64,000 nucleotides of DNA from Bilabrum cf. latius (Eukaryota): the NCBI GenBank assembly GCA_965178125.1, contig OZ237753.1, positions 496,001 through 560,000 of the forward strand. The letters run 5' to 3'. How positions within the stretch are numbered: position 1 is the first letter of the stretch; each line of letters opens with the position of its first letter. Shown here one piece after another: positions 1,126-64,000 of the stretch. The notes under the pieces were generated by a model. The model did no database searches and was not told the origin of the DNA. It saw nothing but the letters and a program-made list of their open reading frames with translations. The position numbers and the translations under genes were made by a program.

Positions 1126-2005
1126 TCAGAAATCCAGGCAGTTACCCAGGCTCCTGCCCTGCTTCTCGAGCGTCAGGCAGTACCACCCCAGTGCCCCCTT
1201 GGAGAAATTGTTCGGGGGCCGACCGCACTCGACCGTGTCTCTGGCGAACGCCCCAGACACGTTGTATCCATGGTACTGCATGTAGTAGCTCCCAGAGAAC
1301 TCCCCCGTCCGGTCGCAACCAGCCTCACAGTGCATGTCCATGACAAGGGGCAGTCCGGACGGGTGCGGCGTGGTCAGCATGCGACGCACGTTGCTCAGGC
1401 GCTCCGGGAGCTGGTCAATGGCCCACAGCACGTCCGTGTTGTTGACGAGATAGTCCCGGATGTCGGCTGGGGTGTCCTGCGAGCAAGAATCCGAGCATGT
1501 GCGGCTGAAGATGCACGGCGCTGTGAAGGGAGAACTGGTGATTCGCAACCCAGAACAACGCCAAAACGTCAGTGATATCACAATACATCGGTAGAGGGAG
1601 GCCGTGTTAACTCCTAAAACTCACTTCAGGTGGCAGCAGGGCTCCGACAAGGAGGTACTCCGTGAGGTTAGCGTTCGGGGGGTTCTTCGCAAAGTAGTCG
1701 AGCTCAAGGTAGTAGTCAGCCTCAAACGGATTGTCGAAAGAGATATCTAGGAAGAAAAATTCTGATGGCAGCGAAAGTCCAGCTTCTTGGGCCCTTTTCG
1801 CCATGAACTAGTCCAGCTCCTGTCGTGCAAACGTGTCATTCACCCTCGGGAAGTTGCTCCTGAACAGAAAATTGGTAATGCCAGCGCTAACGTTGTAGTG
1901 ATCAACTAGGTGCGTCCGGCTGTACTCTAGATTCTCGGCCGATGCCTACTTTGTTGCGGTAGCAAGCACCAAACCTGCTGCAACTATTCCTGGCAAATTT
2001 TGCAT
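1126..2005 (-). CDS. Secreted protein-tyrosine/dual-specificity phosphatase-like protein (~243 aa, 2 exons: 2005-1625, 1476-1126)
   Basis: Hydrophobic signal-like N-terminus MQNLPGIVAAGLVLATAT. Two in-frame TAG (1946, 1808). Phase-0 GTGAG...CGCAG intron at 1477-1624. CX5R loop HCEAGCDRTG near 1305-1335. Ends in TGA. Confidence 0.7.
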
Positions 2006-2248
2006 CTGCGATCGTTCCAAAGGTCACTCTGAATGTCGCCGGTCGATCAGCAAAGAATTAAGTCGCAGATTAAGCAGTAGATATACTTATTCTCTTACAA
2101 TACTGTTCGTGGATAGGTATAAGCGATGTGATTTGAGACTTCATGCCATATCACATCTTCATCTTTGATATTATGCAACACTCGTCATCCACCTGCCACG
2201 TCTCGAAAAAGCAATCTATCCAGTTATTTTGGCAGCAGAACTACTACT

Positions 2249-3451
2249 ATGGCTGCAGGTCGCGTTCTTGCATCCTCATAGAGACTCGCAAGCTAGGTGA
2301 AGGGCTGCCGCTACGCGTTTGGCCTCACTGGAGGCATCGCAAGCGGCAAGAGCCACGCACGTCGTGTGCTTGGTGCACTTGGTGCTTTCTCCGTTGACGT
2401 CGACAAGATTGCCTGGTCCGTGTACGAGAGAGGTAATCCGGCGTTTGATGACATTGTCAAGTCACCAACCTTCGGCAAGTCTGTGCTAGGAGAGGATGGC
2501 AGGATCGATCGACAGAAACTAGGATCCAAGGTGTTTGTCAGCGACACCGCCCCCATGGAAGAACTAAACCAAATTGTGTGGCCGCGAATCCCGCTTATAG
2601 TGCGAAATCACCTGCAAGGAGCGATCAACAGAGACGACCATCGCAGGGTCGTGGTTATGTCCGAGGAATGGCAAGAATGGGCGGAAGACGCTGGTGACGT
2701 GCCGGCCGAGTTCGCGCGGCTTTGCTCCTTGATCGACGATTCTATCGCAGTGGCAACAAGCACTCGAGAATCAGAGCAGGAAAAGCTGGAGGCTGAGGCA
2801 GCGGAGTCGGAATCAGACGAGAGCAACGGGGGGGAGAGGGACGAACAATCGGTCGTGCGACCGAGCATCCTCAATCCGGTCGAGAGGCAGCTGCGAGCCG
2901 AGGCAAAAGCAATGGCGGCGAAGCGCCAATTCCTGGCGGATGAGGTGGAGGCCATGAACGACCCGGAATCGTCCAGCAACTTCAGCCTCATGTCAACGCC
3001 CACGACGCCAGACGTCCCAATGCTCGAGCTGGTGGAGCTGCCTGGGGCCGTGGCCGTGATCGAGGCCGCGGTGATGGTGGAGGCGGGCTGGCACGGTGCC
3101 ATGCAGGAGGTGTGGCTGTGCGAGGTAGACGAGGGCGAGGCGGTCAGGCGGGTGGTGGAGAGAGACGGGGTCGAGGAGGAGGAGGCGAGGGCGAGGCTGG
3201 GCAAGCAGGCCACCGCGGGGGACAGGCAGAGGGTGGCGAGCGTGGTGATCGACACCACGGGGTCACAGCGGGTCACCAGGTGGATGCTACTCCGAGAGTG
3301 GACCGCTCTGGTGAGAAGACTGCAGGCTCAGGACGCAGCAGCAGCAGCAGCAACGAGTGAGGACGAGTTGGACGCGGAGGGGGACTAGAAGGAGGGGGGA
3401 TAGGGTAGTGACGATGATGCGGTTGGTGTTCATAATGAAGGCCGATAGTAA
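2249..3451 (+). CDS. coaE: Dephospho-CoA kinase (CoaE/DPCK) with a long acidic insertion (~400 aa)
   Basis: P-loop GLTGGIASGKS, plus DVDKIA, GRIDRQKLGSKVF, LNQIVWPRI, IEAAVMVEAGW and RVVERDG motifs. ATG 2249 is reached through two TAGs. The C-terminus reads through three TAGs to TAA at 3449-3451. Confidence 0.85.
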
Positions 3452-4888: not shown

Positions 4889-7800
4889 ATGGTCGTAATG
4901 CCGCCAAAGATTGGCAACAAGTAGATGAATGAAGCACATAAAGCTCCTTCATGGAAGGTGTGCGGGCTGCATCCATGTTGGTGGGGTGCTGCTGTGCTCC
5001 TGGTGTGTCTGGCGGCGACAGCAGCGATCGCGGTCAGTGCGCGTATGAACGAGAGGGATGACAGCTACCAAAAGTTCGAAGACCGCGCAAGGCTCCGAGT
5101 AAATGCGTTGGCACAAGCATTCTACAGCCACTTCCCAGAGCTAGCAGGTCTTCGAGCAGCCCTGGAAGGGGCTGCAACGAGCACTGAATATCTCGGGTCG
5201 CGCAACCTTGCTGGCGAGGCTGTCGCAGACCAAATCGTCGCAGCAAACACAGGCAGAGTTTCTGGTGTTGGATATAGTGTCGAAATAGACCGAGTGCATA
5301 TCTCAGCGATGCAGGCAATCTTGGATAGTGTGTACTAGTCCAACTTGAACCGACAGCAAGGCGCCGAACTGCTCTCGTTTGGACCAACGGGACTAATGCC
5401 CCTCTCACAGGCAAACCAGTCTGAAGTAACCCCGAGAAGAAGCTACCCGCTTGTCCTATTCGGAGACTACAACGATACCACGGTGAGTGGTCTCGGTCTG
5501 GACCTTGCGACCAACTCTGCGAGGTACTAGGCTATCCAGACGGCGAGCACATTCCAGACGATCGCGATGACGGAGCCGCTGATACTGGTGAGCAGGGGCA
5601 AGCAAGTCAGAGGCGTCCTGGTGACCGCCCCTGTGTACTCTAACACCGGCCTGGAGCCAGGCGGTGGCCCTACAAAGCTGCCTCCCAACACAAACCTGGC
5701 CGAGCTTGCCGGCGATGTGGCCCCCGGGATCAACCGTGTGACGAGTCCACAGGAAGTGGTGCAGCAGGAGCAGTACACTCACAACGCGAGCGACGCCTGT
5801 GGGGAGGCCTTCAGGGCCGTGTGCCTGCCCTTCACCTCTGCAGAGGACGCGCTGGCGGCCTACAACCAGAGCCTCATCGATGTGCAAGAGGGGAGGAGGG
5901 AGCACCCCCTGGAGCCGTGCAGCAGCAGATGCGTGAACGGGCATCTCATGCGCGGCCATGTGCTGTCCATCTTCTTTTTCGCCGCGATATCGAATCAGGC
6001 AGAGCTGGTGCGGGACGCCGACTCCCCCGTGGCCATCTACAGCGAGGACGTGACCGACCTAGTGAGCGAGGCCCAGGAGAGGCTGAGCGACGGAGCGGGT
6101 AGACTCAACGGACGAACGGAGAGGCCATACGACGGGTATGCGTATGCCGCAGCGACGCAGGGCTTCTAGGATCTGGCCAACTCGCCCCTCTTTGACTTGT
6201 TCTCTGTCGGCACGGAGGCAGTGCCTCGCCACAGCGTCCCTGCAGGGCTGGGTCAGTTCCAGTACGCCCTCAATGACGTGCGCGAGGTGGATGACCCGGC
6301 CTCTGATGAGGCCCAGGAGCGGGTGCTGAGCTTCGTCAAGGAGCGTGCCACGAGGAGCTCGCGGGAGGTGCTGGGGTACCTCGTGCCAGTGGGCAACCGG
6401 GTGTGGTCCATCCACGTGGCGATCACTGATGAGTTCTTCGAGAATCAGGGAAGGAACGCGATCTTGGCTCCGTTGCTGGCGGGAGGTCTTGTGTCCATTG
6501 CCATCACTGCGCTTGTTGGCATGGCATTCTGGCAGCAACGGTCACAGGAGCTCAGGGACTACCAGGCCAGGGCAGAGCAGCAGGGGCGGTTTGAGGCAGC
6601 ACAAAAGGCCCACCAGATCCTCGTGTCTTTCGTGGTGCACGAGCAGCGCAATCCCCTGCACCTGTGCAGCGGCAGCCTGGGTATGCTGAGGGAGGCCTCG
6701 GCCAGCGCGGGTGAGGCTGCTGAACAGGCCCTTGCTGTGCTGGAGGGGGCCCTGATCGAGAACCGGACCGCAGCCGAGCAGTGCACACAAGCAGCTGAGC
6801 GGCTGATGCTGGCGGCATAGATGGAGGAGGGTCCGGATGCCAGCGATGCAGACAAAGCATCTGCAGCAGCCGGGGCAGAGACAAAGCCCCTCAGCTCCAG
6901 CAGCGGTGCAGCAGCTGCACGCACCCAGGAACAGCTCAAGGCCCTGCAGACCCTTGGCTCTGCCACCAGGAAACTCACTGCCGGGGCACAGCAGCTGGAG
7001 GACGCGAAGCACCTGGTCGGAGCGGCCCACAGCCAGATCCGGGCGGGCGGGGGCGACATGGACGTCATCCACCAGGGTACAGAGACCCTGCATCGGCTGG
7101 TGAACGACCTGCTCGACCTCAGCAGGCTGCAGCAAGGCAAGCTGCCCATCTCGCCCGCACCCATGGACCCCCGCAGGCTGATCGTGGCAGTATCTTCCAG
7201 CCACCAGTCGTTCGCAGAAGTGCCTCTTCGGTTCCACGTGGCTGCCTCTGTGCCCCCCGTGGTGCTCGCAGACGAGCTGAGGATCACGCAGATCCTTGCC
7301 AACGGCCTGACGAACGCGGCCAAGTTTTGCAAGAGCGGGTACATCATGGTGGACCTGCAGGTGAGGCTGAGACCCATGAGCAGACATATCGTGGAGGAAG
7401 AAATCAGGTCCAGCAGGTGGGCCCGCATGTACGATAGCGACGAGTAGAAAGGCACGGACCTGGCGGGACGCTCCTCCAATTGGAAGTCACACGGGCACTT
7501 CAAGATGATCCAGTGGGCAATCGAGCAAGAGGCCAAGGTCATGCAGGGAGAGGAATCCGCCGATGGAGGTCCGAAGCAGTTCGAGCAGAAGCAGGGCGAG
7601 GAGACGAGATGGGCTCTGGGGATTGGCATGGAGCCAGCGGAGGCAGGTGGCCAGACTACCGGGTGCCTTGGCAACGAGGACACGGTGAAGCACGCAGGCT
7701 CTAGCCACCTTTCTCGTCTTGAGGCTATTCGCAAGGAGCAGTTGTCCGCATGCACCGAGCTGTGCGGTGGATCTGAGGAGGTGGGCGCAGAGCTCCTGCA

Positions 7801-10800
7801 AGCGATCGAGCGCGCCAGGGCCAGGAAGCCATCTGCCCTGGCTGCCCCCGTGCTGCGTGGAGTCAAGCAGGTCTTTGCCGAGCGGGACTAGCGGCCGCTG
7901 GGAGGTCCTGTGGCTGGGGCCATGGCGGCCATTCCCAGCATCGTGGACCGCGTGCTGCCGCCAAGCGCACTGCTCAGCGGGTTCTCCACGGTCCACGCTG
8001 GCTCTCGAAGGAACACGAGGAGGACCAGCAAGCAAGGCGCTGATGGCCAGGAGGGCCTAGAGCGTATGCTGGCTCTCGAGACGGACACGCTTGCGGCACG
8101 GACGCTGCGTCCTATGACCACCAACTCCATCGAGATTCATGGCAACAGCAACAACACAGGTCACTCCTCCGCGCCATCAGACTCCTCCATGACCAAGGGT
8201 AGCAAAGAGGAAGTACGTTCGGCTTCTCAGCAGCTACCTCCTCTCCTTGCCCCCATGCTAGTGTTCAGGGTGATCGACACAGGGAAGGGGCTCGGGGGCT
8301 CGGGGCCTGGGCGGCACAAGCTGTTTTCGGCGTTTGTCACGGGCGATGCATCCAGCAAGGGTAGCGGTGGCAAGGGGGGGACAAGCGGAGGCAGCACCGG
8401 GGACAGCGACTCGGACGAGCTGGGTGAGAGCTTTGAGTCGGAGAGCCCAGGTCCCCAGGCAGCCGGGCGAGCTTCTCGAGAAGCGAGCGGGCACGTGCCA
8501 TTTAAGCCGTCAGCCCCTGACGGCAGCGCCAGCTCAGTGGCCAAGTAGAAGGGCTCTGGGCTAGGCCTGGCCATGGCGGAGGAGCTGACCAAGCAGATGG
8601 GCGGGGCCATCGAGCTGAGGACGGAGAAGAGGAGGAAGAGGACCGTGCTGGAGGTGGCGCTGCCGCTGCGGCCCCCATGGCGCGTGGTCCGAAGGATGGA
8701 GGCAGGGGCGGTGAGCAAGCTGCCCAGGGATGCCAGCGCAATGTGGGAGCAGCGACTGCAGGTGGAGATGCAGGCGCTGAACCGCGCCATCACCCGGCTG
8801 TCTGCAGGAGACACGGACGGCGCTCTCGAGGAGTGCACGGCGAGAAGGATCAGCAGCGAGACATGGGGCACAGACAGCGGGCCTGTGTCCATGCCTGCAG
8901 CTGATGTATCTGAGCAGGACGTGCAGCAAGCTAGTAGTCACCACGGAGCTAGCACTAGCACAGGGGGTGCTGCTCACGGTCGCGGGAGCCCCTCCGCCTA
9001 GACACTGAAGGAGACAGACCAGCCGGTAGTGCCGCCCCTCTCTGCGGCACTGAATCCGGGATCCGCCCGCACCATCGCGAGCGCAAGGGGGTACCCGGAC
9101 GCTACACAAGGCAACGAGGAGTCGTCAGGCTTTGTCCCTAGCTAGGATGGCTCGCCCGCAGCGCAAGGTCGCAACCTACCGGAAGGGATGTGCATGTCCT
9201 AGCGGTCACGGTCCACGAGCCATGCCTTTAACGGGCCCCGTTCGAACGACAGGCATCGCACTAGGAGGCAGCAAGCCGTTTTGCGTGCGCTGCAGCAAAT
9301 CTTAGAGGCGAAATAGGCGGGGCCTCGTGCTAGTGACACACTCAGCTTGCCTGTGGTTGCCGGTCGACCCCGAGAGATGACTGCAGATCTTCATGAGGAT
9401 CACACGCACGCCCCCAAGGTATCCACGCTAGAGGCTGTCTTGATGCTGGAGAAAGCAAACCTCAGGTAGCTGCTCGTGCACATGCGATCGCTTAGCGGTC
9501 GGTTTGGCGGGCTTGAGGGCTCAGGTCCAGCGCGAGGCAGCCAGTTGCTCGCAAGAGAACGCACCAGCAGCCTCGTGAATCTCTCGATCCCACATGGCAA
9601 CACCAACGCTGGAAATGGTGCTGATCCATCGCGAGAACGAGACTTCTCCGCCTCATCAGCATTAAGTCGCAGCTAGGGAGATGAGATGGCCGCTTCTGAT
9701 AGCACCTAGGCTGGCCTGAGGGCAGCAGGCCGATGGTCGGACCGCATGCAGAGGGCTTAGGCACAGGCATCCATGCGGAGGGACGAGCGGCTGGACAAGA
9801 TGCCGGCCAGGGGTTTGCTGAGGCGCGTGGATCACGCTCGTGCCGCTGCCACGGACGGCAAGAGTGACTCCAGGTCTCAATCCGCTGCTGCAGTGGACCC
9901 AGGCAGCAAGAAGGTGAAAGGCACCAGCAAAGGCGGCATGTCCAAGGACAATTGGTCTTCGTCCACCAACAGCACTGGCTAGCTTCACGGACAAATCCTG
10001 CTAACAGACTTGACAGCAGGCGCGCTGCCGGAGCCGGACGAGGCAGATGCCGCGGACGAATCATCCGACCCGGTAGAACGAATGCGGCTGAATAAAGGGA
10101 AGAAGTCCAGCCGGGTCATGCCAAATGTGCCATTGTCAGCGTCCATCACTGATGAGGCCAGCCCCCTCACCCCAATGGCAGCATCTCCCTCTAATGCTCC
10201 GATGCCGGCAGATAAACAGTCTTCGTCCATGTCCAAGCAACTGAGGGAGGCCTTCAGGAGGGGTCTATCCGGAGGAAGCACCAGCACGCACTCTAGCAGC
10301 AGAGGCAGGACAGCCTCCGACATGACGACTGCAATGGGAGGCGTGCAATCGTCCACTGCTACACAACGGGGGCAGCCCTCCCGCAGCTCTGCCGGCACCG
10401 TGCCAGCTGCTCCCCCGATGCCACCGTCCCACGCCCAGGGCCCACTCTCTGGTCTGCACGTGCTGCTGGTGGACGATGAGCGCGCCCTCAGACGAATGGC
10501 CTCCCGCATGTTGCAGCGGCTCGGTGCGACCTCGGAGGAGCTGGAGGACGGGCAGGAGTGCGAGGCTGTGCTGAAGGGCAGGGGGCAGCTGGCAAGCAAA
10601 CATTCTGCTCACCGTGCAGCAAGCTCCGGCCGTTAGTTCGACTTGGTCCTGATGGACATCGTGATGGTGCATTCCAGGGGCACGGACGTGTGCAAGCACC
10701 TCCTTGAGCTGGGATGCAGGGTGCCCATCTTCGCCATGACGGCCAACCACGATGCTTGGAACCTGCCGGAGTACAGAGCTGCCGGCTTCTACGGTCTGCT

Positions 10801-11227
10801 GGCGAAGCCGTACTCGCAGAAGCAGCTCTCAGGCAAGCTGAGCACGCTGGTCAGGAGCGGTGTCGTGGACGCGGTGAGACAGGAACAGATGCGCTGGGCC
10901 CAGGGAGGCGCGGCAACACGTGCTCGGCCAGTGGACGAGCTGTGGCGCCGGAAAGACAGGCAGCTGTACCCCGAAGCGCCTGCTGAATCCACGGATGCGA
11001 CTGGGTCTGACCAGCCGCATTCGCTCAGCGTCGTGCCAGAGGCCGGTAGCGTGGAACCGGGTGCAGCATCCAGTCGAGGCAAGCACTCGGGGGAGCAGAT
11101 AAGCGTCAGCCCGGCCATGAAGGGGTCCATCGGAATCGAGGTGATGTCATCATCTTCCGGCGCGGGAGGCGCTGCCGCAGGTGGCAGGCGAAAGCGCAGG
11201 GTAGTCAAGAAGAAGTCCAAGGGGTGA
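4889..11227 (+). CDS. Membrane-bound hybrid sensor histidine kinase, copy 1 (TM-CHASE-TM-HisKA-HATPase-REC, ~2112 aa, intronless)
   Basis: All ORF pieces are in one frame, separated only by TAG (about 18), with a final TGA. TM WWGAAVLLVCLAATAAIAV. CHASE-like LGLDLATNSARYqAIQTA...TEPLILV...APVY and VGNRVWSI. H-box FVVHEQRNPLH, N-box DELRITQILANGLTNAAKF, G1 VIDTGKGL, G2 GSGLGLAM. Receiver LLVDDE...FDLVLMDIVM...AMTAN...AKPY. Confidence 0.92.
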
Positions 11228-11377
11228 GTCGCTCGGGATATTAATTTGAATATCGCGAGGACTTGCGTTCCATGGTGGCAATCGACATGCTACGCGTTGC
11301 GCCTATCTTTGTCTTGTTTGAAATATAATTTGCTTGACCATCAGACTAGATCTACTCGGTATAAATTCCAGAGCGAC

Positions 11378-17300: not shown

Positions 17301-17743
17301 GAGGGATATTCCGCATCCAAGATTGCCTGCACCACTGAGATATGGACGCGGTCTATTTCGACACTATATCCAACCGCAGACACTCTGCCGGGGTTTGCTG
17401 CGACGATTTGGTCTGCTACAGCCTCTGCCGCAAAGCTGCGCGACCCGAGATATTCAGTGCTAGTAGCAGTCCCTTCCAGGGCTGCTCGAAGACCTGCTAG
17501 CTCCGGGAAGTGGCTGTAGAATGCTTGCGCCAACGCATTTACTCGGAGCCTTGCGCGTTCTGCGAACTTTTGATAGTTGTCGTCGCGCTCGGTTGTCTGA
17601 ACCGTGACAGCGACCACGGCTGTCACCGCCAGGCACACAACGAACACGATTGTGACCCACCAGCAGGGATATAAACCACAATATTTCTATGAAGGGGCCT
17701 GTAGCGGGTTGCGTTTCGGTTTGTCCGCTTTAATCGCTTGCAT
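11378..17743 (-). CDS. Membrane-bound hybrid sensor histidine kinase, copy 2 (~2121 aa, intronless)
   Basis: Inverted paralog of 4889-11227, in a single frame broken only by TAG. Same domain order, identical C-terminal 194-aa ORF, terminal TGA. ATG at 17743 aligns with the copy 1 N-terminus (APSqKYCGLYPCWW vs APSWKVCGLHPCWW). Confidence 0.92.
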
Positions 17744-52666: not shown

Positions 52667-55600
52667 ATGAGATAGCCAGCGAGTACGGTGGCGAGTTGGA
52701 GCCATTCTGAGCGGAGAGATGCCTTCAGACGCGTTCCTAGACAAACCAATCAAGTACAAGTGCTAATTTTTCCCTGGCTGCTTGTGTTGTCGTCTACAAT
52801 TGGCTCAGCAAACCAACAGCTCAGGGACGTGGGCCCATCCATGGCGCCAGGGCAGCTACACCGCGGATTTCTGAACGGAGAGTCAAGACATGAAAGTTTC
52901 ATGCGCCCAATGCGATTTTCAAATGACGCATTTAACAATGAGAACGAACAGTCCCGTGATCCATGCGGATCCCTGTCCGGCCCTGCACACTCCGGCACCA
53001 GGTGTACCAGAGAATCTGCGGCCGGTTAGAATTTACTCCCCAAATGCAGGCGACCGTCCGATGCTGCCTCAAGGCTATTGCAAACTTCACCAAGTCCATC
53101 GCCATCCCCAGCTGAGCCTGGAGTGGTCCTGAGCGCGACCAAGATCGCGCACGGAGTCGGTGGCACAGGCGCGCCCACTCTGTAGAACCACGACTTCTTC
53201 GGGCGCGCTTCAGCGGCTGTCGGTGATATTGATGGAGACGGCATCGAGGATATTGCTGTCAGTGCGAGTGGGGCCGATGATGGAGGCACGGACACTGGCT
53301 CGCTGTGGGTGCTGCTGATGAACAGCAACGGCACGGTGAGGGCCTCGCAGGAGATCTCGAGCACGTAGGGCGGGGCCAGCTACACGCCAGCAGTAAACGG
53401 CGGCTTCGGCATCTCAGTCTCTCCAATTCTTTGCGGATCATACGATTCGTGCGTCCCGGGGATCGCGGTTGGCTGGGCTAGCCATGCAGGCGGTGCCGTG
53501 ATTTTGTTTCGCATGAACGCGGACGCAACAGTGAACCGTACGCAGGTGATCAGTGACGGCGTTGGCGGTCTTCCCCTCGGGACTTATAACTCCAGTGATT
53601 GGTTCGGGGAGTCCATCAGCGGGATGGTCGGTGACGTGGATGCAGATGGCTACAGCGATCTACTAGTGACTGCTCCAGCCTTTGACGCTGGCGGCACTGA
53701 CCTGGGTGCAATGTTCGTGCTGTACATGAACGGTGACGACACAGTGCGGGAGGTGAATCGCATCAGCTAGGCCACAGAGGAGGGTTTGGACGTGTTGTCT
53801 TCATCACGTCTGCATCTCGGACAGTCCATTTGCGCGATTCCGCCGCGATCTGACGGTGCTGTCGCTGACGTGTTGGTTGGGACCGGAACTGAGCAAGTCA
53901 TCGTGATGTTCTCACTGCATTCCACTGGCACGGTCAATAGTACGGTACATGTGATTGGGAGCGGGCTGGGCGGTATGCCAATCGGATCTATTTCGATTGG
54001 TGAGGCATTCGGACGTCCAATTGGATCGATCGGAGATGCCGATGGCGACGGTGTCTTTGACCTTGGCGTAGGGGCCCACTTGGAGGACTCCGGTGGTATA
54101 GACAGCGGGGCAGTGTACATCTTGTACATGACAGGGAACTATTCGAATGACCCGGTGCGTGGCTACACGAAGCTGACAAGGCTGACAACGGGCCTGGGCC
54201 TAGCGATACAAGCCTCTGGGCACCTGAGACCAGCAACACACCATGCAGACATTGATGGAGATGGCCGGACTGACCTTGTGCTAGGCATTGCCCTTGATGA
54301 CACCGGGGGAGGCGAACGTGGTGCCATCGTAGTGGCACTCATGGGTGGATCAGCCGCCAGTGCAAGCCCGACACCGTCTCCCTCTCCCTCTGCAAGCGTT
54401 ACGCCGAGTCCCGCTGCTGCCGGTGATGTTGTGCGTGTCACGAAGATCGGCACCGGCCTATCAGGCTTCCCCAGCGGACTCGTGGATGCTGGCGATTCGG
54501 TGGGTGAGCGCCTGCAGGGCATCGGGGATCTGGACGGAGACGGCGTGCCCGACCTGGCCGTAGGGGCGCGCCGAGATGATGACGGAGCCTCAGGTGCCGG
54601 AGCCGTGTATGTGGTGTTCTTGCAGTCGGACAGCAGCGTGAAGCGCGTGCAGAAGATCTCGTCGCTGGCTGGTGGACTGAACGAGACGCTGGAGGCCAAT
54701 GGGTACTTCGGCTTCTCTGTAGGCAAGCTGCATCAGCCGCTCGGCGACGATGCTGGCATGGTGCGGCTGCTTGTAGGGCAAGAACAAGCCAGCGTTGGCG
54801 GCATACCTAGTGCAGGTCGAGTGTGGGTGCTGCGGCTGTGGCCCGATGGCACCGTGGCACATGCGCAGCCTATCGATGGCCTGCAGGGCGGGCTGGAGAG
54901 GACTGACTTCCACGCCAACAATGACAATCCAACTTTCGGATCCGATGTGCTCGGCGGCATCGGAGATGTGGACAGCGATGGTATCAATGATGTGGCTGTT
55001 GGAGCTAGAAACGCCAAAGGAAGCGAAATACGCGATGGCGCTGTGTACATCCTGTTCATGTGCGCCAATGACACAGCACGCGAGTACAGCAAGATATCCA
55101 GGGCTGCAGGGGGCGGGTTGTCATCTTTAGGACCCAACTTTGACGAAATTGGCCGCACAATCACAGCCATGCCTGTGCTCAATGCCAACAGCACGGCTGT
55201 ATTCACGCTGGTCATCGGCGACTCCATTCCTGACCGTGTGGTCCTGGCGGAGATCGACTCCACGGGATCCGTGCTGAATGGCAGCTCGCTGGTGCAGCTG
55301 GGAAGCGGCGTGGGCGGCATCGCGTCAGGTGATGTGGAATCCTCGGACATTGGATTTGGCCATGTCGTGCAGTACGTGGGTCCGATGGACGACTCGGGTC
55401 AGTTGGTGCTAGCTGTGGGGGCCCCATTTGACGATTCTGGTGACGGTGATGATTCTGGTGACGACGATGATTCTGGTGACGACGCCAATGACGGTGCTGT
55501 GTTTTTGCTTTTCCTGGATCCGCTTGCCGCTGATGCAATGCAGCCTGTGCAGCGCGTGGTGGAGATCAACACCACGCATCCATTGATTGACCCGCTGGCT

Positions 55601-58600
55601 GACGGCGGCGAGTGGATGCATTCGATTGCCCTGCTTGGCGATGTGGATGGTGATGGCCGCAATGACTTGGCCTTGGGCATGCCTGAAGAGACAGTGGGAT
55701 CTACTGAGGACGGCGCGTTCCTGATTGCCACCATGGGCGGGTCGGTGCCTAGTCCGAGTCCGTCTCCATCGCCCACTCCAAGCATCACCCCATCGAGCAG
55801 TGCCACGCCAAGCATGACTCCTAGTAGTATCACTCCCACGCCGAGTCCCGCTGCTGCGGGCGACGTTGTGCGTGTCACGAAGATCGGCACCGGCCTGTCA
55901 GGCTTCCCCAGCGGACTCGTGGATGCTGGCGATCAGTTTGGCGAGCGCCTGCAGGGCATCGGGGATCTGGACGGAGACGGCGTGCCCGACCTGGCCGTGG
56001 GGGCGCGCCGAGATGATGACGGAGCCCGAGATGCCGGAGCCGTGTATGTGGTGTTCTTGCAGTCGGACAGCACCGTGAAACGCGTGCAGAAGATCTCGTC
56101 GCTGGCTGGTGGACTGAACGAGACGCTGGAGGCCGATGCGTATTTCGGCTTCTCTGTGGGCAAGCTGCATCAGCCGCTCGGCGACGATGCTGGCATGGTG
56201 CGGCTGCTTGTAGGGCAAGAACAAGCCAGCGTTGGCGGCGTGTCTAGTGCAGGTCGAGTGTGGGTGCTACGGCTGTGGCCCGATGGCACCGTGGCACATG
56301 CGCAGCCTATCGATGGCCTGCAGGGCGGGCTGGAGAGGACTGACTTTGATGCAAGTACAAGCAAGCATTTTGGATCCGATGTGCTCGGCGGCATCGGAGA
56401 TGTGGACAGCGATGGTATCAATGATGTGGCTGTTGGCGCAAAAGATGCAGACGGCAGCGACACGGGTGACGGCGCAGTGTTGATCCTGTTCATGTGCGCC
56501 AATGACACAGCACGCGAGTACAGCAAGATATCCAGGGCTGCAGGGGGCGGGCTGGCCTCTCTTTCATCAACCTACCGTAGCACTGGCCGCACAATCACAG
56601 CCATGCCTGTGCTCGATGCCAACAGCACGGCTGTATTCACGCTGGTCATCGGCGACTCCATTCCTGACCGGGTGACTCTGGCGGAGATCGACTCCACGGG
56701 ATCCGTGCTGAATGGCAGCTCGCTGGTGCAGCTGGGAAGCGGCGTGGGCGGCATCGCGTCAGGTGATGTGGAATCCTCGGACATTGGATTTGGCCATGTC
56801 GTGCAGTACGTGGGTCCGATGGACGACTCGGGTCAGTTGGTGCTAGCTGTGGGGGCCCCATTTGATGATTCTGGTGACGGTGACAATGGCGGTGCTGTGT
56901 TTCTGCTTTTCCTGGATCCGCTTGCTGCTGATGCAATGCAGCCTGTGCAGCGCGTGGTGGAGATCAACACCGCGCATCCATTGATTGACCCGCTGGCTGA
57001 CGGCGGCGAGTGGATGCATTCGATTGCCCTGCTTGGCGATGTGGACGGTGACGGTCGCAATGATTTGGCTTTGGGCATGCCTGAAGAGACAGTGGGATCT
57101 ACTGAGGACGGCGCGTTCCTGATTGCCACCATGGGCGGGTCGGTGCCTAGTCCGAGTCCGTCTCCATCGCCCACTCCAAGCGTTTCGCCTAGCGCTTCAC
57201 CTACCCCTAGCGTGACCCCATCCGTCACGCCTTCAACCAGCCCAGTCGCTGCCGGCGATGTCGTCTGGTCTGTCGCCATTCGAGACGGCCAGGCCGGGCT
57301 GCCTTCAGGTGTGCACTTGGGATGGGACTATTTCGGGGACGGTGTGGTGAGCCTGGGTGATCTTGATCAAGACGGCATGCCTGACATCGCTGTCGGTGCA
57401 CCGGGGACAGGCATGGATGCCGTTGACAACTTAGGTACTGTGTTTGTGCTGTATCTGCACCGGAACGGTACGGTAAAGAGTCACGTTGAGATCGGGGCTG
57501 GTCAGGACTCGAGCGGGTTTGACTTCGAGCCCAGTGAACTTGGGGAGGGATGGTTCGGTGCAAACCTGGTGGCGATGGATCAACCAGCTGGGGACGAGGG
57601 CCAGCTGCTGCGGCTGGTTGTGGGTCAGCCACAATTCGACAGCGCCTCGGTGAACGCCGGCCGGGTCTGGGTGCTACGACTGCTTCCCAATGCGACAGTG
57701 GCGCATCACCAGCGGATCGGTCAGGGAGAGGGCGGCTTGCCATCCTCGCTGTTTGAGCCGGCATCGCTGTTTGGTGAGGGCCTCGCCACTCTTGGGGACG
57801 TGGATGGGGATGCACTGAATGACTTGGCCGTAGGAATGCATTTGGACGATGCAGTTGGATCTAATGATGGCAGCGTGCACATCCTGCTGATGGCTGCAGA
57901 TGACACGGTGAGGCTTCACTCACGGATCAGCCGGGCAGCAGGCGAGGGCTTGCAGGGCCTGTCTCTGTCTCATCAGTTTCTTGGGTAGGCTGTTGCTGCG
58001 CTGTCTCCTGCTGGGACTAGTCCAGGCCCCGTGGACCTTGCCATGTCGCTTCCTCCGTCCGACATGATCGTGCTGCTTCCACTCAACAGCAGTGGATAGG
58101 CAGGCGGCAATTGGACGGTGATCGCAGATGGACGCGGCGGCGTGCCGGCTTACACGATTGCAGTTGACTCCAGGTTCGGTATTAGCATGGCAAGCATCGG
58201 GGACATCAACGGTGACGGCCATGAGGACCTGGCCGTGGGGGCCAACGAGGACAGCACGGATGGACATCAGCGAGGCGCTTTGTTCCTGCTGTTTCTGGAC
58301 CGCCGCAATGCCACCCTGGAGCCAGTGGTGGGCATCAGTCGTCTTGGGAGCAGCTCAAGTGGCCTGGGGAGTGGAATCGTGACTACGGGTATGAGATTCG
58401 GGTCTGGCATTGCAAACGTGGGCGATCTGGATGGAGACGGCACAACTGATTTGGTTGTAGGCGGTCGATCCGGGGGCACGCAGTTTGCAGGTGCGGTGGT
58501 GGTGATGTTCATGGGGGGCGTGCAGCCGTCTGTGAGCCCAACTCCGAGCACCACTACATCCATCACTCCCACACCCAGCGCCACAGCCACATCGACAGCT

Positions 58601-61600
58601 TCAGCGTCAGCGACTCCAAGCATCACAGCTTCAGGCACCCCTGAGCCTACGACTACCGCGACAGCAACTCCGACATCCAGCGGGACACCATCTCCAACTC
58701 CCAGTCATACTCCCACTCCCACTTCTACTGCAAGCCCGTCAAGCAGTCCGACGTCTGGCACCACTCCATCCGTGTCCCCGACAGCCTCCAGCGCGCCCAG
58801 TCCTGCTGCACCCGGCACCGTGCTGGGTCAGCAAACGATCGGCGGATCCACGGGCGGCGCTCCGTCTACTGTGGCCGTGGCACAGGGCGCCTTTGGGTCT
58901 TCCATGGCGAACCTCGGGGACATCGATGGGGATGGTGTGGAGGACCTTGCTGTGTCTGCTACTGGGACTGGGACTGTATCTCCTGGCTTGGTGGCGGTGT
59001 TCCGCATGGCGGCCAACGGAACCGTCAAAGCGAGCTTCGTGATGGACTCGGACTCTGGCTTGCTGGGCTTGTCGAGTGGCACTGGGGTGACGATGGAGGG
59101 TGCCCGGCTGGGAGCAATGCGGCAGCCGCTGGGCGAGGATCCCGATCTGGTGCGTCTGCTTGTTGGCCAACCCAAGGGAGGCACGGCCAACCCTGAAGGT
59201 AGGCTGTGGGTGGTTCGACTGCAGCCGAATGGTATGCACAAGAGCCATGTGATCATCGGGGCTGACGGCGAGGGCGGCTTTGAAGGCTTCGCGGATGCAC
59301 TGACATCGCTGGGCGGTGGTGTGACTGGCGATGCAGGCGATATGGATGGTGATGGGCTGCATGACATAGTGCTGGGGGGGCCTGGGTACGGGCTGATCTA
59401 CATCTTGTTCATGCGCGCGAATGACACTGTGCGCTCCTTTACTCGACTGAGTCCAGCAGCGGGGGAGGGCTTCGATGCACCTGGGCTGCCGCTTCTGAGT
59501 CTGGGCACATCCATGTCAGCGCTGCCTCCTTTCGATGGGGCGGGCCCTGTGGATCTGGTGCTGGGCGCGCCTGGGAGCGATGCTGTGTTGCTGGCTCCCC
59601 TGGGTCGGGATGGGGCTTTGAGGACTGACGGTGACGCACGCGTCGTGCAGATCTCGAATGGGAAGGGAGGAGTGCAGGACGGGTCCGTGTCGCAAGGGTC
59701 ATTCTTCGGCTTCGCCGTGCAGTCTGCTGGTGACATGGATGGTGATGGCCAGTACGACCTGGCTGTGGGGGCTCCATTGGATGCAGGAGGGGGCACGGAC
59801 AGAGGCGTGGTGTACTTGCTGTTTCTGGATCGGTCCAATGGCACAACAGTGCCTGTACAGAGTCAGCAGGTGATAGGCAGTGCGACATCTGGATTCCTGT
59901 CTCGGCTGGTGTCCGACTTCGATACGTTCGGAGCCTCGGTGGCGGTGATGCCTGACCTGAATGGGGATGGACGGAGCGACCTGGTGATCGGCCGGCCGGG
60001 CTCCACGGTAGGCGCGCAGTTCAGCGGATCAGTGGAGGTGGTGTTCCTGAGCGCGGCCTTCCCAAGCGCCACACCATCAGCGTCGCCATCAGTCTCCATC
60101 ACAGCCAGTCCATCGGCCTCCAGCTCACAGTCAGTACAACCATCCAGCACGCCTAGCAGTACGCCAGGACCAGCTCCGGTAGTTTCAGCATCTGTGACAT
60201 CTGGCTCATATCTGCTTGACTACTGCGATGGCAGGGTAGAGTTGTCGGCTACAGGCAGCAGGGTGGTGGCTCATGGCAGCGGGGAAGGCTTGCGGTACGA
60301 ATGGTTCGTGGGCGTGCATCCCAGCTCGCCAGATGCAGGATCTGCAGATGTGCGGCTAGCCGTGGCTCGGCTGGCATCTGCACTACAAGGCCTTGCATCT
60401 GTGCCAAGCTTTGCGAGCAGTGATGCACTGGTGCTGCCAGTAGTGGCTGCATCGGACGCAGGCCAGCGCAACTTGCAGGCAACACAGGCGCTGGATGCTT
60501 CTTTGCTGGCACTGCCGCGAGTGGGCCTGGGGCAGCGTGTGGTGTTTGAGGTCAAGCTGCGTGCAAGGGACGCGAGTCGGGGATTGGACTCGAGCAGCCC
60601 CCTTGGGATCAGCACTCGGGGCAGCATTGCGTCCTTGGCTGTGACGAGCGTAGGTGTGCCTCGACCAGTGCTGACCCCGCGCAATACTAGTGCTGTTGTG
60701 GCAGGCCGCACACAGAAGCTGTAGCTTGGGCCCCAGCCTGAGATGTGCGGATCCGCGGGAGTGCAAGTGCCTGCTAGGAGCCGACTTGCGCTGGCATTCG
60801 ACTGGGTGCAAGTGGCCTCTGTGCAGGACAGGGCGCTGGCTCTGGATCCGTCAAGGCTGGTATCTGTCGGGTCTGGATCGCTTGTATCACGATCAGTGGT
60901 AAGAGGATACACGGATGTGACCTCTTATTTGACTGGTGTGCAGGATGGGCTAGGGCAGCCTTCCTCCAGCCCCACACCGTCAAACACGCCGAGCGCGTCT
61001 GGAACACCCTCATCAACAGGGACTGCATCAGCTGCCACTACGCCGTCAGCAAATGTATCTCCATCAGCGTCGTCATCTTCATCTGCTTCTGCCACAGCGA
61101 CTGCCACAGCGACTGCCACCAGCTCCACCTCCATTGTATCGCAAATTCCCAGCACCACGCCATCGCCAACCTCGTCCGGTGGTGGTGGGCAGGTTGGTGA
61201 TCCAGGTTTGGATGATCCCATCAATGGTCCTGGCGGCCGCGGCTTGGATGATCCCATCAATGGCCCTGGCATACCTGGCTTGGATGATCCCATCAATGGT
61301 CCTGGCATACCTGGCTTTGACGATCCCATCAATGGTCCTGGCATACCTGGCTTGGATGACCCCATCAATGGTCCGAACACTAGAGTCCGAAGGTCTCGCA
61401 CGCTCCTGCAGAGCTGGTGGGATGCCATGTTTGGCACCGTTGAGGATGAAGAGGCTGAAGAGCGGTCCATGAATCATGGATGTGTTGGCCAAGAGTACTG
61501 CGGCTGGGGTAGTGATGATGAATTCGGGAGTGGTGATTCACTGGTTCGACAGCCCAGCCTTCGTGATCAAATCGAGAAGGCTGGCATCGCAGCATCAGAG

Positions 61601-64000
61601 CTCTCTGGCCGCTGGCTATCTGCAGGATCTGACACAGCACGCACGGTTCCAGCCACAGCTGCCCAGCCATCTCGAAAGCTGGCTTCTCTTCGAGCCACTG
61701 CCCCATTCGCTGCATTCGATGTATCGAACGCCCGTGAGGATGTGGATGTACTGGGAGGCCGGGGTGCAGCCCACGATCTGTCCGCCAGTGCTTGGTTCCG
61801 TCGGTTGTCTCGAGGTGAGTCCTCGCTCGGAAGCGCCAGCTTGACCATCCCTGCCTTCGCGCTGCGGGTGCGGCACGGGTACTTGTTCGCAGTGAGGGCC
61901 ACCCCTGTGCTTGTGGGTGCAGATGGGGCTGTGTAGAATGTGCTGGGCTCTGGAGAGCAGCTGGCTGAGGGTTGGAGCCTGGTAGGTGTGGGTATTCGCA
62001 AATCTCAGCTGCGGCTGGGCGTGAGTGGCGGAGACAGGACGGTGTCATCTGAGCTGGGCTTCAGTATGGGCGCTGGGGCGGGGCGAGGTGCCAGCACCGG
62101 CGTGGATCCTGACTTCGATACTACTGGCACTGCGCTTGATCCTGGGTATGATGTGGGGAGATAGGTGCCCATTCAGGTGTACCAGTGGTCGTGCGTTGCC
62201 ACGCCGAGTGGAGGCACGACATAGACGGCCTGTCCCGAGCTGGTGCCGGGCAATGGCTAGCCCACGACTGTGGCTTCGATTCAGGTGTCGACTGCGACGG
62301 CTGCGTCGTTCGCAGGTCAGCGGCTGGTACTGTCGGTGAATGCATCATCAGGCTTGGTGACTCTGAACGAGACAGGCAGGCGAGAGCTGCACGCCACGAC
62401 TCGCATGCTGCAATCACAGGCATTGGTATCATCTATCGATGCAACGACTCTGGTCACGAGCCAGACCAGCAGTCGGGTCACGGTGGCACTGCCGGGTCTG
62501 CCCTCGGTCGAGGTGAACGCGTTACGGACGAGACTGACTCGGCTGTCGGCAGAAGGGGGCAACACGGTGGTATCGCCATCTGTGAGGACCGTGCTGGATG
62601 CAGTGGTGAATGGCATTGCCCCTCAGGATGCGAGAATCTCCGTGCAGGAAGAGGGCCTGACCCTGCTGTGGACGCAAGTGAGCGGGCCTGAGATTCCGGG
62701 GCTGCGACGGGTGAACTCGACTGTGGCAACTCCTGGCGGCAGTGCGATTCTGACGTCACCGACGGCCCGCAGCATGGTGCTGCGGGCGGGCGTGCTGCAG
62801 GTGGGAGCCACGTACACGTTCCATGTGGAGTCCTCGCTGGCATCTGTGAGTGCCGAGCTGTTGGAATCTGGAGACGTGACCGTGTCCGCCGATATCACCC
62901 TTGTTGTGAACACCCCACCGCGGCCGGGTCAGGTTGAGTTGAATGGCCTGGTGGGATCCAACCGGACCATCCCGCGCGCCTTGCTGGACACGGTGCGTGT
63001 ATCCACAGATGGATGGATCGATGCAACGGAAGACTTCCCGCTCGAGTTCTCCTTCTTTGTGGACACCCTGGGACTGGTGGGGTAGAGGGATGCTTCCACG
63101 GCTGTGGTGTCGCCTAGCGAGATCGCGTCCATCTTGTCTAGAGCTGGCGTGATTCCGCTGCGTGGCGCCGGGCTGGAGTCGCAGCTGTCCTCAGTGCTGC
63201 CTTCGGGTCCCACTGTCGCGGGACAGCCGCCTGTGAACATGACCATCATCGCCACTGCCAGGGACCCCTCAGGTGCGCTGGGCCTGGCTGCGACGCAGAT
63301 CCAGGTAGCCCCGGCGCTGGACGAGTCCGAGCTGAGGAACAGCAGCGTGGTGACGAGTGCAGCGACAGATCGGCTCAACGAGGCCATCAACAGCGCGGCA
63401 TCGAGCGACCCGGGCAAGGCGCTTGTGCTGGCCGGGGCATCTGCTGGGCTGCTGAACTCGCTGGACACGAATGACACGTCGGCACAAGAGGAGGCGTCTG
63501 GCATCCGGGATCAGGTGCTGGGGCTTGTGGCAACTGTGGCCGAGACTGTGGATGTCACGGGCGAGAACATGCAGCTGGCCGCAGAGACTGCATCCTCGGC
63601 GCTGTCCACTGCCAACGCCACGACCGAGCACCAGCTCGGATCAGCGCTGAACGCCACGGAGCTGCTGCTGACTCGCCGACTGCAGGAGGGCGACCCTGAT
63701 GAGCCCTTGGACGACGGGCCGGCAGGGTCGCTGCTGCAGTCGTTGCGCGTGGCGTCGAATGCGGGAGCATCGCTGGGCGGTGGTGAGGCAGTGACGGGCG
63801 GGGAGCGCATGTCAAACTCGTCAGGACTACTTGGTCAAGCAATGTTGCGTGGGTCGGTCCCAGGCGAGGAGCAGCGCGTGCTGACATCTGAGAGCGGGGA
63901 CGGCAGCGGGATCTCGCTTGAGATGGTGGCGGGCCGTCTGGACGTGCTCGGCCTGGACACCGCAAATGTGTCGGTGGTGGCGGGCGGGGCAGATGTGCTG
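52667..64000 (+). CDS. Giant intronless receptor, copy 2 (partial, runs off the window): 5 FG-GAP propeller modules and REJ-like region
   Basis: Tandem paralog of 32185-50916 in a single frame broken only by TAG (12 counted). ATG 52667 is followed by hydrophobic VLIFPWLLVLSSTIG. The region ~57200-64000 is highly similar to ~39260-45710. Confidence 0.88.
61201..61380 (+). repeat. Coding 36-bp tandem repeat, 5 x (G[L/F]DDPINGPxxx)
   Basis: The core GA(T/C)GA(T/C)CCCATCAATGG recurs every 36 bp. The paralog has a single unit at ~43060-43090. Confidence 0.9.

What the first reader, a model, noticed from the sequence alone, without database searches (positions are those of the whole stretch)
1126..64000. 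Non-standard nuclear genetic code: UAG = Gln while UAA and UGA stay stops
Seen in sequence: in roughly 50 kb of coding sequence the frames are interrupted only by TAG (about 25 in the 18.7 kb gene, about 18 in kinase copy 1), never by TAA or TGA. Complete genes end in TGA (9) or TAA (2: 3449, 50914). Paralogs and internal repeats place TAG opposite Gln codons: 8546/14093, 8999/13640, 12257/10346 (CAA), 41704/59675, 42157/60128, 43036/61190, 63083/44794, 62162/43873, 53366/32794, 53768/33208, 34738/55295, 38221/32776 and 35572/34183. The exchange goes in both directions between copies. Other TAGs are shared by both paralogs (e.g. 6167/16472, 40045/57986), and TAGs also occur in essential genes (NOP2, CoaE). 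Established: most eukaryotic reassignments change UAA and UAG together; UAG-only Gln (NCBI table 15 type) is rare, and I recall it from the fornicate Iotanema and a few ciliates. Inference: a GC-rich protist like this could be an independent, possibly unreported origin.
Basis: partly seen in the sequence, partly recalled or inferred. Interest (0 to 1): 0.95.

Follow-up and report, generated by a model that had tools for sequence, protein, structure and literature searches.

The report
UAG read as sense codon, probably glutamine
This GC-rich eukaryotic DNA has genes full of in-frame TAG codons that stay in the spliced mRNA and behave like glutamine codons, while TAA and TGA still end genes, a rare variant of the genetic code in a lineage that could not be placed.

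Summary
In nine protein-supported frames (18,274 codons) there are 86 in-frame TAG, 0 TAA and 0 TGA. The off-frames of the same DNA hold 49-55 TAA and 407-500 TGA. Reading TAG as sense raises the longest frame from 1,405 to 6,267 codons; reading TAA or TGA as sense does not. Spliced contigs from three other runs carry the TAGs of three genes with no differing letter, so the main RNA form is unedited. TAG/CAG exchange between paralogs is as frequent as a synonymous exchange and about 18 times that of non-synonymous T/C exchanges. TAA is a real stop: about 25 in-frame TAA would be expected if it were Gln, and none occurs. A related metagenome contig ends NOP2 with TAA where the window has TGA, and it has its own in-frame TAG. 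Gln is the best-supported meaning, but columns from distant homologs are mixed. No tRNA, eRF1 or peptide evidence was available. The code type (UAG=Gln only) is known from Iotanema and a few ciliates. This organism is neither and has no named close relative here. Ten literature searches found no report of it.

The parts
224..1066 (-). Glutathione peroxidase gene, Cys type, two exons. The intron starts GTGAGA just after ...VASK. Stop is TGA at 224. No TAG in the coding part.
   Evidence: (PF00255, E 1.8e-15)
1126..2023 (-). Dual-specificity-phosphatase-like gene in two frames, so probably one intron. In-frame TAG at 1948 and 1810. Stop is TGA at 1126. The + strand frame 956-1765 is its antisense and not a gene.
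   Evidence: DSPc, weak: E 7e-4, below Pfam's cut-off
2249..3451 (+). Dephospho-CoA kinase (CoaE) gene, counted from the first ATG. TAG at 2279 and 2294 lie between the ATG and the P-loop. TAG at 3386, 3401 and 3446 lie in the tail. The gene ends TAG-TAA (3446-3451).
   Evidence: (PF01121, E 5.8e-34)
4889..11227 (+). HK1, a CHASE hybrid histidine kinase (CHASE, HisKA, HATPase_c, receiver). There are 19 TAG in the stop-to-stop frame, including 8546 inside HATPase_c and 10634 inside the receiver domain. Stop is TGA.
11378..17743 (-). HK2, an inverted paralog of HK1. It has 10 TAG, 5 of them shared with HK1. Stop is TGA.
18280..22057 (-). NOP2 rRNA cytosine-C5 methyltransferase. ATG at 22057. Introns 21891-21984 and 19809-20099 (GT..AG). 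1,130 codons with 1 TAG (21600). Stop is TGA at 18280-18282. RNA contigs end near 18177.
22392..24937 (-). Inositol polyphosphate 5-phosphatase with a C2 domain. ATG at 24937. Intron 24545-24732. 785 codons with 6 TAG (24856, 24823, 24751, 24356, 24161, 23588); the last lies inside the catalytic domain. Stop is TGA. The TAG at 24626 is intronic.
25089..27932 (+). Leucine-rich-repeat protein gene with 8 TAG (25287, 25467, 25746, 27183, 27291, 27411, 27420, 27432). Stop is TGA.
   Evidence: (LRR hits weak, below cut-off)
29190..30698 (-). AIF3-like Rieske plus pyridine-nucleotide-disulphide oxidoreductase, 3' part of the gene. No TAG. Stop is TGA.
32185..50916 (+). REJ1, a giant FG-GAP repeat / REJ / GPS membrane protein. 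The frame has 6,267 codons and 26 TAG. Stop is TAA at 50914.
52667..64000 (+). REJ2, a tandem paralog of REJ1 that runs off the window. There are 13 TAG in 3,781 codons, 7 shared with REJ1 in the alignment.

Best explanation
The organism reads UAG as an ordinary sense codon, most likely glutamine, and keeps UAA and UGA as terminators (the NCBI table 15 type of code).

Shown here:
- TAG, and only TAG, interrupts long coding frames.
- The TAGs are present in spliced mRNA.
- They lie inside catalytic domains and ahead of conserved C-termini, so ribosomes must read through them to make the proteins.
- TAG exchanges with CAG between paralogs at a synonymous-like rate.
- TAA and TGA are absent from frames and end every gene in view.
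- A second, related species shares the trait.

Inferred, not shown: a tRNA-Gln with anticodon CUA decodes UAG, and eRF1 has lost UAG recognition while keeping UAA and UGA. This is the mechanism proposed for the other UAG=Gln lineages. TAG makes up about 12% of presumed Gln codons (86 of 730).
For: Frames.
- Nine frames, 18,274 codons: TAG 86, TAA 0, TGA 0. Off-frames: TAA 49-55, TGA 407-500.
- Longest frame: 1,405 codons standard, 6,267 with TAG as sense, 1,405 with TAA or TGA as sense.

Selection.
- Between the two paralog pairs, single-base codon differences are 714 synonymous and 299 non-synonymous across 5,764 aligned codons. Both copies are therefore under purifying selection across the TAGs.

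RNA.
- Contigs of runs X5, X6 and X7 (two studies) carry GT..AG splice joints: 19808>20100 in 3 of 3 runs, 24544>24733 in 2 of 3, 21890>21985 in 2 of 3.
- The DNA-like run X1 carries none of these joints.
- These contigs cover the NOP2 TAG, all 6 INPP5 TAGs and at least 7 of the 8 LRR TAGs with 0 differing letters in those contigs.
- They end about 90-100 nt past the TGA stops.

Meaning.
- Of 29 TAG sites not shared by the direct paralogs, 12 face CAG and 1 faces CAA.
- With at least 14 of 20 flanking residues identical, 9 of 15 face CAG.
- Exchange per codon occurrence: TAG/CAG 11/52 = 0.21; synonymous TTG/CTG 20/144 = 0.14; six non-synonymous T/C first-position pairs pooled 10/839 = 0.012. 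Fisher p = 2e-9 against the non-synonymous pairs and 0.27 against the synonymous pair.
- The motif QPxGD...RLLVG occurs 5 times in REJ1: 3 copies use CAG or CAA and 2 use TAG.
- The TAG at 38221 sits in a column that is Q in 636 of 1,325 aligned stretches from 150 distant homologs, and CAG in 12 of 17 internal repeats.
- An empirical classifier on 10 TAG sites ranks Q first.

TAA as a stop.
- CAA is 22.7% of CAR codons, so about 25 TAA would be expected among the TAR codons if TAA were Gln. None occurs (P = 2.5e-10).
- Intergenic DNA holds 78 TAA in 7,553 nt.
- Gene ends: TGA 8, TAA 2, TAG 0.

Relative.
- L001 is syntenic (INPP5 then NOP2), with 74% and 60-77% amino-acid identity.
- Its NOP2 has an in-frame TAG about 105 codons before a conserved C-terminus.
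- Its NOP2 ends with TAA where the window has TGA.
Against: The amino acid is not proven.
- 16 of the 29 unshared paralog sites face non-Gln codons: GAG 3, TCG 2, AGG 2 and others. Many of these lie in poorly aligned stretches.
- The one TAG in a domain with many outside homologs (INPP5, residue 386) sits in a variable column: E 28, A 5, K 4, Q 3 of 60.
- In the two ortholog comparisons with L001, TAG faces AAG and AAC, not a Gln codon. Both are in low-complexity regions.
- Other FG-GAP TAG sites fall in columns dominated by A (949/1189), T (650/997) or D.
- The classifier's margin is small: Q -26.32, T -26.57, E -26.94. Ten true Q sites come out first in only 77% of trials.
- The receiver-domain column is variable in PDB matches.

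TAG/CAG is also the most likely mutational path whatever TAG means.

No tRNA gene or Rfam match lies in the window. No whole genome is held, so tRNA-Gln(CUA) and eRF1 could not be examined.

Only 10 gene ends in the window and 2 in L001 were seen, so occasional use of TAG as a stop is not excluded.

Contigs drop rare variants, so partial editing at a low level is not excluded.
Confidence: 0.78

Rival explanations
1. UAG is a sense codon but stands for another residue, such as Glu, Lys, Ser or Thr, as in other lineages where UAG alone was reassigned (Leu in a rhizarian, Ser in Scotinosphaera).
For: - The INPP5 column at the TAG is E in 28 of 60 homologs.
- TAG faces GAG 3 times, TCG 2 times and AAG once between paralogs.
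- TAG faces AAG in the L001 ortholog.
- The classifier puts T and E within 0.25-0.6 nats of Q.
Against: - 13 of 29 unshared paralog sites face Gln codons. No other residue exceeds 3.
- The TAG/CAG exchange rate equals a synonymous rate and is 18 times the non-synonymous T/C rate.
- TAG occupies the Q of a repeated motif and a Q-dominated outside column.
- Several non-Gln partners (CCG, CCC, CAT, AGG) are one step from CAG but two from TAG.
Confidence: 0.08
2. UAG is ambiguous: sense inside genes but also a terminator near some 3' ends. This would resemble the context-dependent codes of Condylostoma, karyorelict ciliates or Blastocrithidia.
For: - It cannot be excluded from 12 gene ends.
- CoaE ends TAG-TAA and has three TAG in its last 21 codons.
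- REJ1 has a TAG 14 codons before its TAA.
Against: - 0 of 10 gene ends in the window and 0 of 2 in L001 need TAG as the stop.
- RNA contigs run about 90-100 nt past the TGA stops of NOP2 and INPP5.
- In L001 a TAG 105 codons from the end of NOP2 is followed by conserved protein sequence.
Confidence: 0.1
3. The ordinary UAR=Gln code (table 6 type, as cited for Amoeboaphelidium, ulvophytes and many ciliates), with TAA simply rare because the genome is GC-rich.
For: The genome is GC-rich (56-64%; GC3 0.67), which lowers the expected number of TAA.
Against: - 0 in-frame TAA, where about 25 would be expected from the CAA share of 22.7% (P = 2.5e-10).
- TAA is common in intergenic DNA (78 in 7,553 nt) and in off-frames (49-55).
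- TAA ends two genes here, and it ends NOP2 in L001 at the place of the window's TGA.
- Reading TAA as sense does not lengthen any top frame.
Confidence: 0.02
4. An artefact or non-translational cause: systematic C-to-T base-call error, DNA damage, U-to-C RNA editing that restores CAG, or decaying pseudogenes.
For: TAG differs from CAG by one transition. The paralogs are duplicated genes that could in principle decay.
Against: - A C-to-T process would also create TAA from CAA and TGA from CGA in frame. None is seen.
- Contigs of four runs from three studies match the window over 18000-28200 with no differing letter listed (one in a minor X6 contig).
- Spliced RNA contigs keep TAG.
- Synonymous changes outnumber non-synonymous ones 714 to 299 between paralogs.
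- TAGs also sit in single-copy NOP2, CoaE and the 5-phosphatase.
Confidence: 0.02

Closest known systems
Iotanema spirale (Fornicata): UAG=Gln, UAA and UGA stops
   Same: The same three assignments: only UAG reassigned, to Gln, with UAA and UGA as terminators (PMC5304391; passages read).
   Different: The organism differs. The window has 56-64% GC, giant intron-poor genes, CHASE histidine kinases and FG-GAP/REJ receptors. Its NOP2 does not group with any named taxon sampled. In Iotanema UAA is the main stop; here TGA is (8 of 10).
Ciliates Hartmannula sinica, Trochilia petrani and Protocruzia tuzeti: UAG=Gln only
   Same: Reassignment of UAG alone to Gln, inferred from in-frame UAG at Gln columns (PMC11687900; passages read).
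   Different: Nothing here looks like a ciliate macronuclear genome: the contig is 64 kb, GC-rich, and carries 18.8 kb genes. In those ciliates the inference used hundreds to over a thousand aligned UAG codons and suppressor tRNAs. Here it rests on 86 codons and no tRNA.
Amoeboaphelidium protococcarum (aphelid)
   Same: A non-ciliate, alga-associated protist in which TAG is read as Gln.
   Different: Citing papers state that both TAG and TAA appear to encode Gln there (PMC6299283, PMC5304391, PMC11687900; passages read). The original paper was not seen. Here TAA is a stop. No fungal relative is among the top 120 NOP2 hits.
UAG-only reassignments to other residues: rhizarian exLh (Leu), TARA phyllopharyngean MAGs (Leu), Scotinosphaera (Ser)
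   Same: UAG and UAA have become uncoupled (PMC5304391, PMC11687900; passages read).
   Different: The partner codons here point to Gln. TTG never faces TAG between the direct paralogs, and TCG does so only twice.
Genetic code 15 in crAss-like and other gut phages
   Same: TAG=Gln with the other stops kept (PMC9523058; abstract in the search listing only).
   Different: Those are phage genomes. This is spliced eukaryotic nuclear DNA.

Membership tests
UAG=Gln, UAA/UGA=stop nuclear code (NCBI table 15 type) | In-frame UAG inside coding sequences of mature mRNA | tested here: met
   86 TAG in 18,274 codons. Spliced contigs of X5-X7 cover at least 14 TAG codons of three genes with no differing letter. 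TAGs lie inside the 5-phosphatase, HATPase_c and receiver domains.
UAG=Gln, UAA/UGA=stop nuclear code (NCBI table 15 type) | UAG positions correspond to Gln in homologs | tested here: inconclusive
   For: 13 of 29 unshared paralog sites face Gln codons; the exchange rate is synonymous-like; two repeat motifs and one outside column are Q. Against or neutral: the INPP5 column is E-rich; 0 of 2 L001 ortholog sites face Gln codons; other columns are A, T or D; the classifier margin is small.
UAG=Gln, UAA/UGA=stop nuclear code (NCBI table 15 type) | UAA and UGA absent from coding frames and used as terminators | tested here: met
   0 TAA and 0 TGA in frame, against 49-55 and 407-500 in off-frames. 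Gene ends are TGA 8 and TAA 2. In L001, NOP2 ends TAA where the window has TGA. This holds within 64 kb plus one 6.5 kb contig only.
UAG=Gln, UAA/UGA=stop nuclear code (NCBI table 15 type) | A tRNA-Gln with anticodon CUA | not testable with these tools
   No tRNA in the window. No whole genome is held.
UAG=Gln, UAA/UGA=stop nuclear code (NCBI table 15 type) | eRF1 N-domain changes that fit loss of UAG recognition | not testable with these tools
   eRF1 is not in the window. No genome is held.
UAR=Gln code (table 6 type) | UAA also used as a Gln codon | tested here: not met
   0 in-frame TAA, where about 25 would be expected (P = 2.5e-10). TAA ends genes.
Ambiguous stop/sense codes (Condylostoma or Blastocrithidia type) | The same codon also terminates genes, depending on context | tested here: inconclusive
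   0 of 12 gene ends seen use TAG. The sample is too small to exclude it.

The most novel reading that the evidence does not exclude
This is an independent and so far unreported origin of the UAG-only-to-Gln code. It would sit in a GC-rich, intron-poor eukaryotic lineage with no named close relative in the protein collections searched, and at least two species would share it (the window's organism and the L001 / P0121 relative). It would also be a case that AT-driven loss of the codon cannot easily explain.
Probability: 0.45. Interest if true: 0.8.

Novelty: new member of a known kind. Interest (0 to 1): 0.7.

Why it matters
Nuclear codes in which UAG and UAA have different meanings are very rare. 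The papers read name one fornicate, one rhizarian, one green algal genus and a handful of ciliates.

A further case would add an independent data point on three questions:
- how eRF1 can drop UAG yet keep UAA;
- how a suppressor tRNA-Gln becomes fixed;
- whether base composition drives such changes, since this genome has about 60% GC, giant genes and TGA as its main stop.

There is also a practical consequence. Gene callers using the standard code will cut most long genes of this organism and its relatives into pieces. The close relatives found here appear only as short or truncated proteins.

Tried and rejected
- **Whole genome.** None is held, so there was no genome-wide codon inference and no tRNA or eRF1 search.
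- **tRNA and Rfam scans of the window.** Nothing found.
- **The look-up of sequencing runs.** No RNA holder is listed on record. The kinds of X5-X7 are the tool's guesses. Their RNA content was inferred from splice joints only.
- **First INPP5 alignment.** It timed out and was repeated with faster settings.
- **PDB searches for conserved columns.** The receiver-domain column at the TAG is variable. The CHASE stretch had no match.
- **Pooling FG-GAP blades from outside homologs.** This put D opposite the TAGs of the QPxGD motif, because other blade types align there. The motif itself is absent from all 150 representatives, so those two columns say nothing about the residue.
- **Taxonomic placement.** By score the best named NOP2 hits are oomycetes (57-64% identity). 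In a quick single-gene tree (SH-aLRT only; the careful search did not finish) the window and its relative sit on a long branch outside oomycetes, ochrophytes, plants and the one animal. AIF3-like hits fall from 70/54/75% (unnamed) to 37%. INPP5 is at most 40% identical to anything. The placement is left open.
- **GPx selenocysteine.** The TGA after ...VASK is the start of an intron (GTGAGA), and the spliced form reads Cys, so there is no Sec.
- **Literature.** Ten searches found no report of UAG=Gln in a GC-rich non-ciliate, non-fornicate eukaryote. Subscription journals are largely missing from the library, and supplements were closed.
Full report
**What the window is.** The 64 kb have 56-64% GC and carry eukaryotic genes packed closely together. 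Pfam finds:
- a dephospho-CoA kinase;
- two CHASE hybrid histidine kinases, arranged as an inverted pair;
- NOP2;
- an inositol polyphosphate 5-phosphatase with a C2 domain;
- a leucine-rich-repeat protein;
- an AIF3-like Rieske/FAD oxidoreductase;
- two giant FG-GAP / REJ / GPS membrane proteins;
- a glutathione peroxidase and a phosphatase-like gene at the left end.

No tRNA gene and no Rfam family lie in the window. No whole genome is held for it.

**The observation.** Under the standard code the longest frame has 1,405 codons. With TAG read as sense the longest frames have 6,267, 3,782, 2,150 and 2,130 codons. With TAA or TGA read as sense the longest stays at 1,405.

The nine protein-supported frames hold 18,274 codons with 86 TAG, no TAA and no TGA. 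The two other frames of the same stretches hold 55 and 49 TAA, 140 and 137 TAG, and 407 and 500 TGA.

I made three small corrections:
- I count 8 TGA and 2 TAA gene ends, not 9 and 2.
- One TAG (24626) is intronic.
- The frame 956-1765 is antisense to a real gene.

**The TAGs are in mature mRNA.** I laid four runs on 18000-28200.

Run X1 behaves as DNA. One contig covers 18000-27292 at flat depth, and none of the intron joints appears.

Runs X5, X6 and X7, from two other studies, carry contigs with splice joints that read GT..AG on the coding strand:
- 19808 to 20100 (291 nt, NOP2), in all three runs;
- 24544 to 24733 (188 nt, 5-phosphatase), in X5 and X6;
- 21890 to 21985 (94 nt, NOP2), in X6 and X7.

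Their depth also differs several-fold between neighbouring genes. The tool only guesses these runs' kinds, and it marks X5 'probably DNA'. The joints are the evidence that they hold RNA.

These contigs cover the NOP2 TAG, all six TAGs of the spliced 5-phosphatase CDS and at least seven of the eight LRR TAGs, with no differing letter in those contigs. They stop about 90-100 nt past the TGA codons that end NOP2 and the 5-phosphatase.

So the main RNA form keeps UAG. Contigs drop rare variants, so a low level of editing is not excluded.

**The TAGs must be translated.** Three lines of evidence say so.
- Some lie inside domains: residue 386 of the 5-phosphatase frame within the catalytic domain, HK1 residue 1238 in HATPase_c, and residue 1934 in the receiver domain.
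- CoaE has two TAGs between its only upstream ATG and the P-loop.
- Between the two paralog pairs, single-base codon differences are 714 synonymous and 299 non-synonymous over 5,764 aligned codons. The frames are therefore under purifying selection on both sides of the TAGs.

**Which residue.** Of the 29 TAG sites not shared by direct paralogs, 12 face CAG and 1 faces CAA. No other residue is faced more than three times.

Because TAG and CAG differ by one transition, I compared exchange rates per codon occurrence:

| Codon pair | Kind | Exchanges | Rate |
|---|---|---|---|
| TAG/CAG | in question | 11/52 | 0.21 |
| TTG/CTG | synonymous | 20/144 | 0.14 |
| six T/C first-position pairs, pooled | non-synonymous | 10/839 | 0.012 |

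Fisher's test gives p = 2e-9 against the non-synonymous pairs and p = 0.27 against the synonymous pair. TAG/CAG therefore behaves as a silent change.

Inside the giant protein, a blade motif QPxGD...RLLVG occurs five times. Three copies have CAG or CAA and two have TAG.

The TAG at 38221 faces CAG in 12 of 17 internal repeats. It also sits in a column that is Q in 636 of 1,325 aligned stretches from 150 distant homologs.

**Evidence that does not point to Gln.**
- The 5-phosphatase column is E in 28, A in 5, K in 4 and Q in 3 of 60 homologs.
- Other FG-GAP sites fall in columns dominated by A, T or D.
- The receiver-domain column is variable.
- In the related contig the two comparable TAG sites face AAG and AAC.
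- An empirical classifier over ten sites ranks Q first by only 0.25 nats over T.

I take Gln as clearly the best reading, but not as proven.

**TAA and TGA are stops.** If TAA were Gln with the CAA share of 22.7%, about 25 in-frame TAA would be expected. None occurs (P = 2.5e-10). TAA is common in intergenic DNA, at 78 in 7,553 nt. Ten genes end in TGA (8) or TAA (2), and none needs TAG as its stop.

**A second species.** A scan of JGI metagenome contigs with the 5-phosphatase found one relative, L001 (74% identity, 56% GC). It has the same gene order, 5-phosphatase followed by NOP2.

Its NOP2 matches protein P0121, which was 88% identical to the window's NOP2 core. That NOP2 has an in-frame TAG about 105 codons before a C-terminus conserved with the window. 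It ends in TAA exactly where the window has TGA. The trait is therefore shared by at least two species, and orthology supports TAA as a terminator.

**Mechanism.** Only the decoding outcome is shown. That a tRNA-Gln(CUA) reads UAG, and that eRF1 has lost UAG but kept UAA and UGA, is inferred by analogy with the published UAG=Gln lineages. Neither gene could be looked for.

**Comparison with what is known.** From the passages read:
- UAG=Gln with UAA as stop is reported for Iotanema spirale (PMC5304391).
- It is also reported for the ciliates Hartmannula sinica, Trochilia petrani and Protocruzia tuzeti (PMC11687900).
- Citing papers describe Amoeboaphelidium as reading both TAG and TAA as Gln.
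- UAG alone stands for Leu in a rhizarian and some ciliate MAGs, and for Ser in Scotinosphaera.

So the code type is known.

**The organism is not placed.**
- By score the best named NOP2 hits are oomycetes at 57-64%.
- A quick single-gene tree leaves the window and its relative on a long branch outside every named group sampled.
- For the AIF3-like protein and the 5-phosphatase, the only close hits are unnamed metagenome proteins.
- Ten literature searches found no report of this code in such an organism.

The library lacks most subscription journals and supplements were closed, so a published description cannot be excluded.

**Verdict.** It is a new member of a known kind of code variant, possibly an independent origin. 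Still open are the residue (Gln likely), the possible occasional use of UAG as a stop, the decoding machinery, and the organism's position.

Noticed in passing
window 4943-17698: The two histidine kinase genes form a convergent inverted duplication with mosaic divergence. The inner arms 10388-11243 and 11362-12217 are 100% complementary and only 118 nt apart. The arms 5621-9183 and 13458-17020 are 97% complementary. The stretch between these arms is much more diverged. This looks like gene conversion at a palindrome centre, or an assembly effect.
   Followed up: partly
window 32185-64000: Two tandem giant genes (6,267 codons and more than 3,781) combine many FG-GAP propeller modules with REJ, GPS and a multi-pass membrane tail. 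One blade type carries a motif QPxGD...RLLVG that was found in none of the 150 best outside homologs.
   Followed up: partly
window 19809-20099: The 291 nt NOP2 intron is a multiple of three and has no TAA or TGA in frame. A naive stop-to-stop reading therefore runs straight through it and inserts 97 unrelated residues into the methyltransferase domain. The related protein P0121 was also called into this intron.
   Followed up: yes
window 587-694: In the glutathione peroxidase gene a TGA follows ...NVASK, where selenocysteine stands in some GPx proteins. Here it is the start of an intron (GTGAGA...GCAG), and the spliced reading gives Cys (KCGFT).
   Followed up: yes
window 956-1765 (+): A 269-codon frame with 6 TAG and no Pfam match lies antisense to the phosphatase-like gene at 1126-2023. 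It is most likely not a gene, so its TAGs should not be counted.
   Followed up: yes
window 3446-3451: CoaE ends with TAG directly followed by TAA, and it has three TAG in its last 21 codons. Whether UAG near a 3' end is read differently is open.
   Followed up: no
window 18280-24743 (runs X1-X7): Near-identical sequence (79-100% of sampled words) is held by runs filed under three different coded organism labels in three studies. Small shares occur in runs labelled protist and algae metagenome. The organism may live with, or contaminate, other cultures. I did not pursue this.
   Followed up: no
L001 5393-6220: Downstream of NOP2 in the related contig lies a 275-codon frame with 2 TAG and no Pfam match. 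It has no counterpart at the matching place in the window, where HK2 follows NOP2, so synteny ends there.
   Followed up: partly
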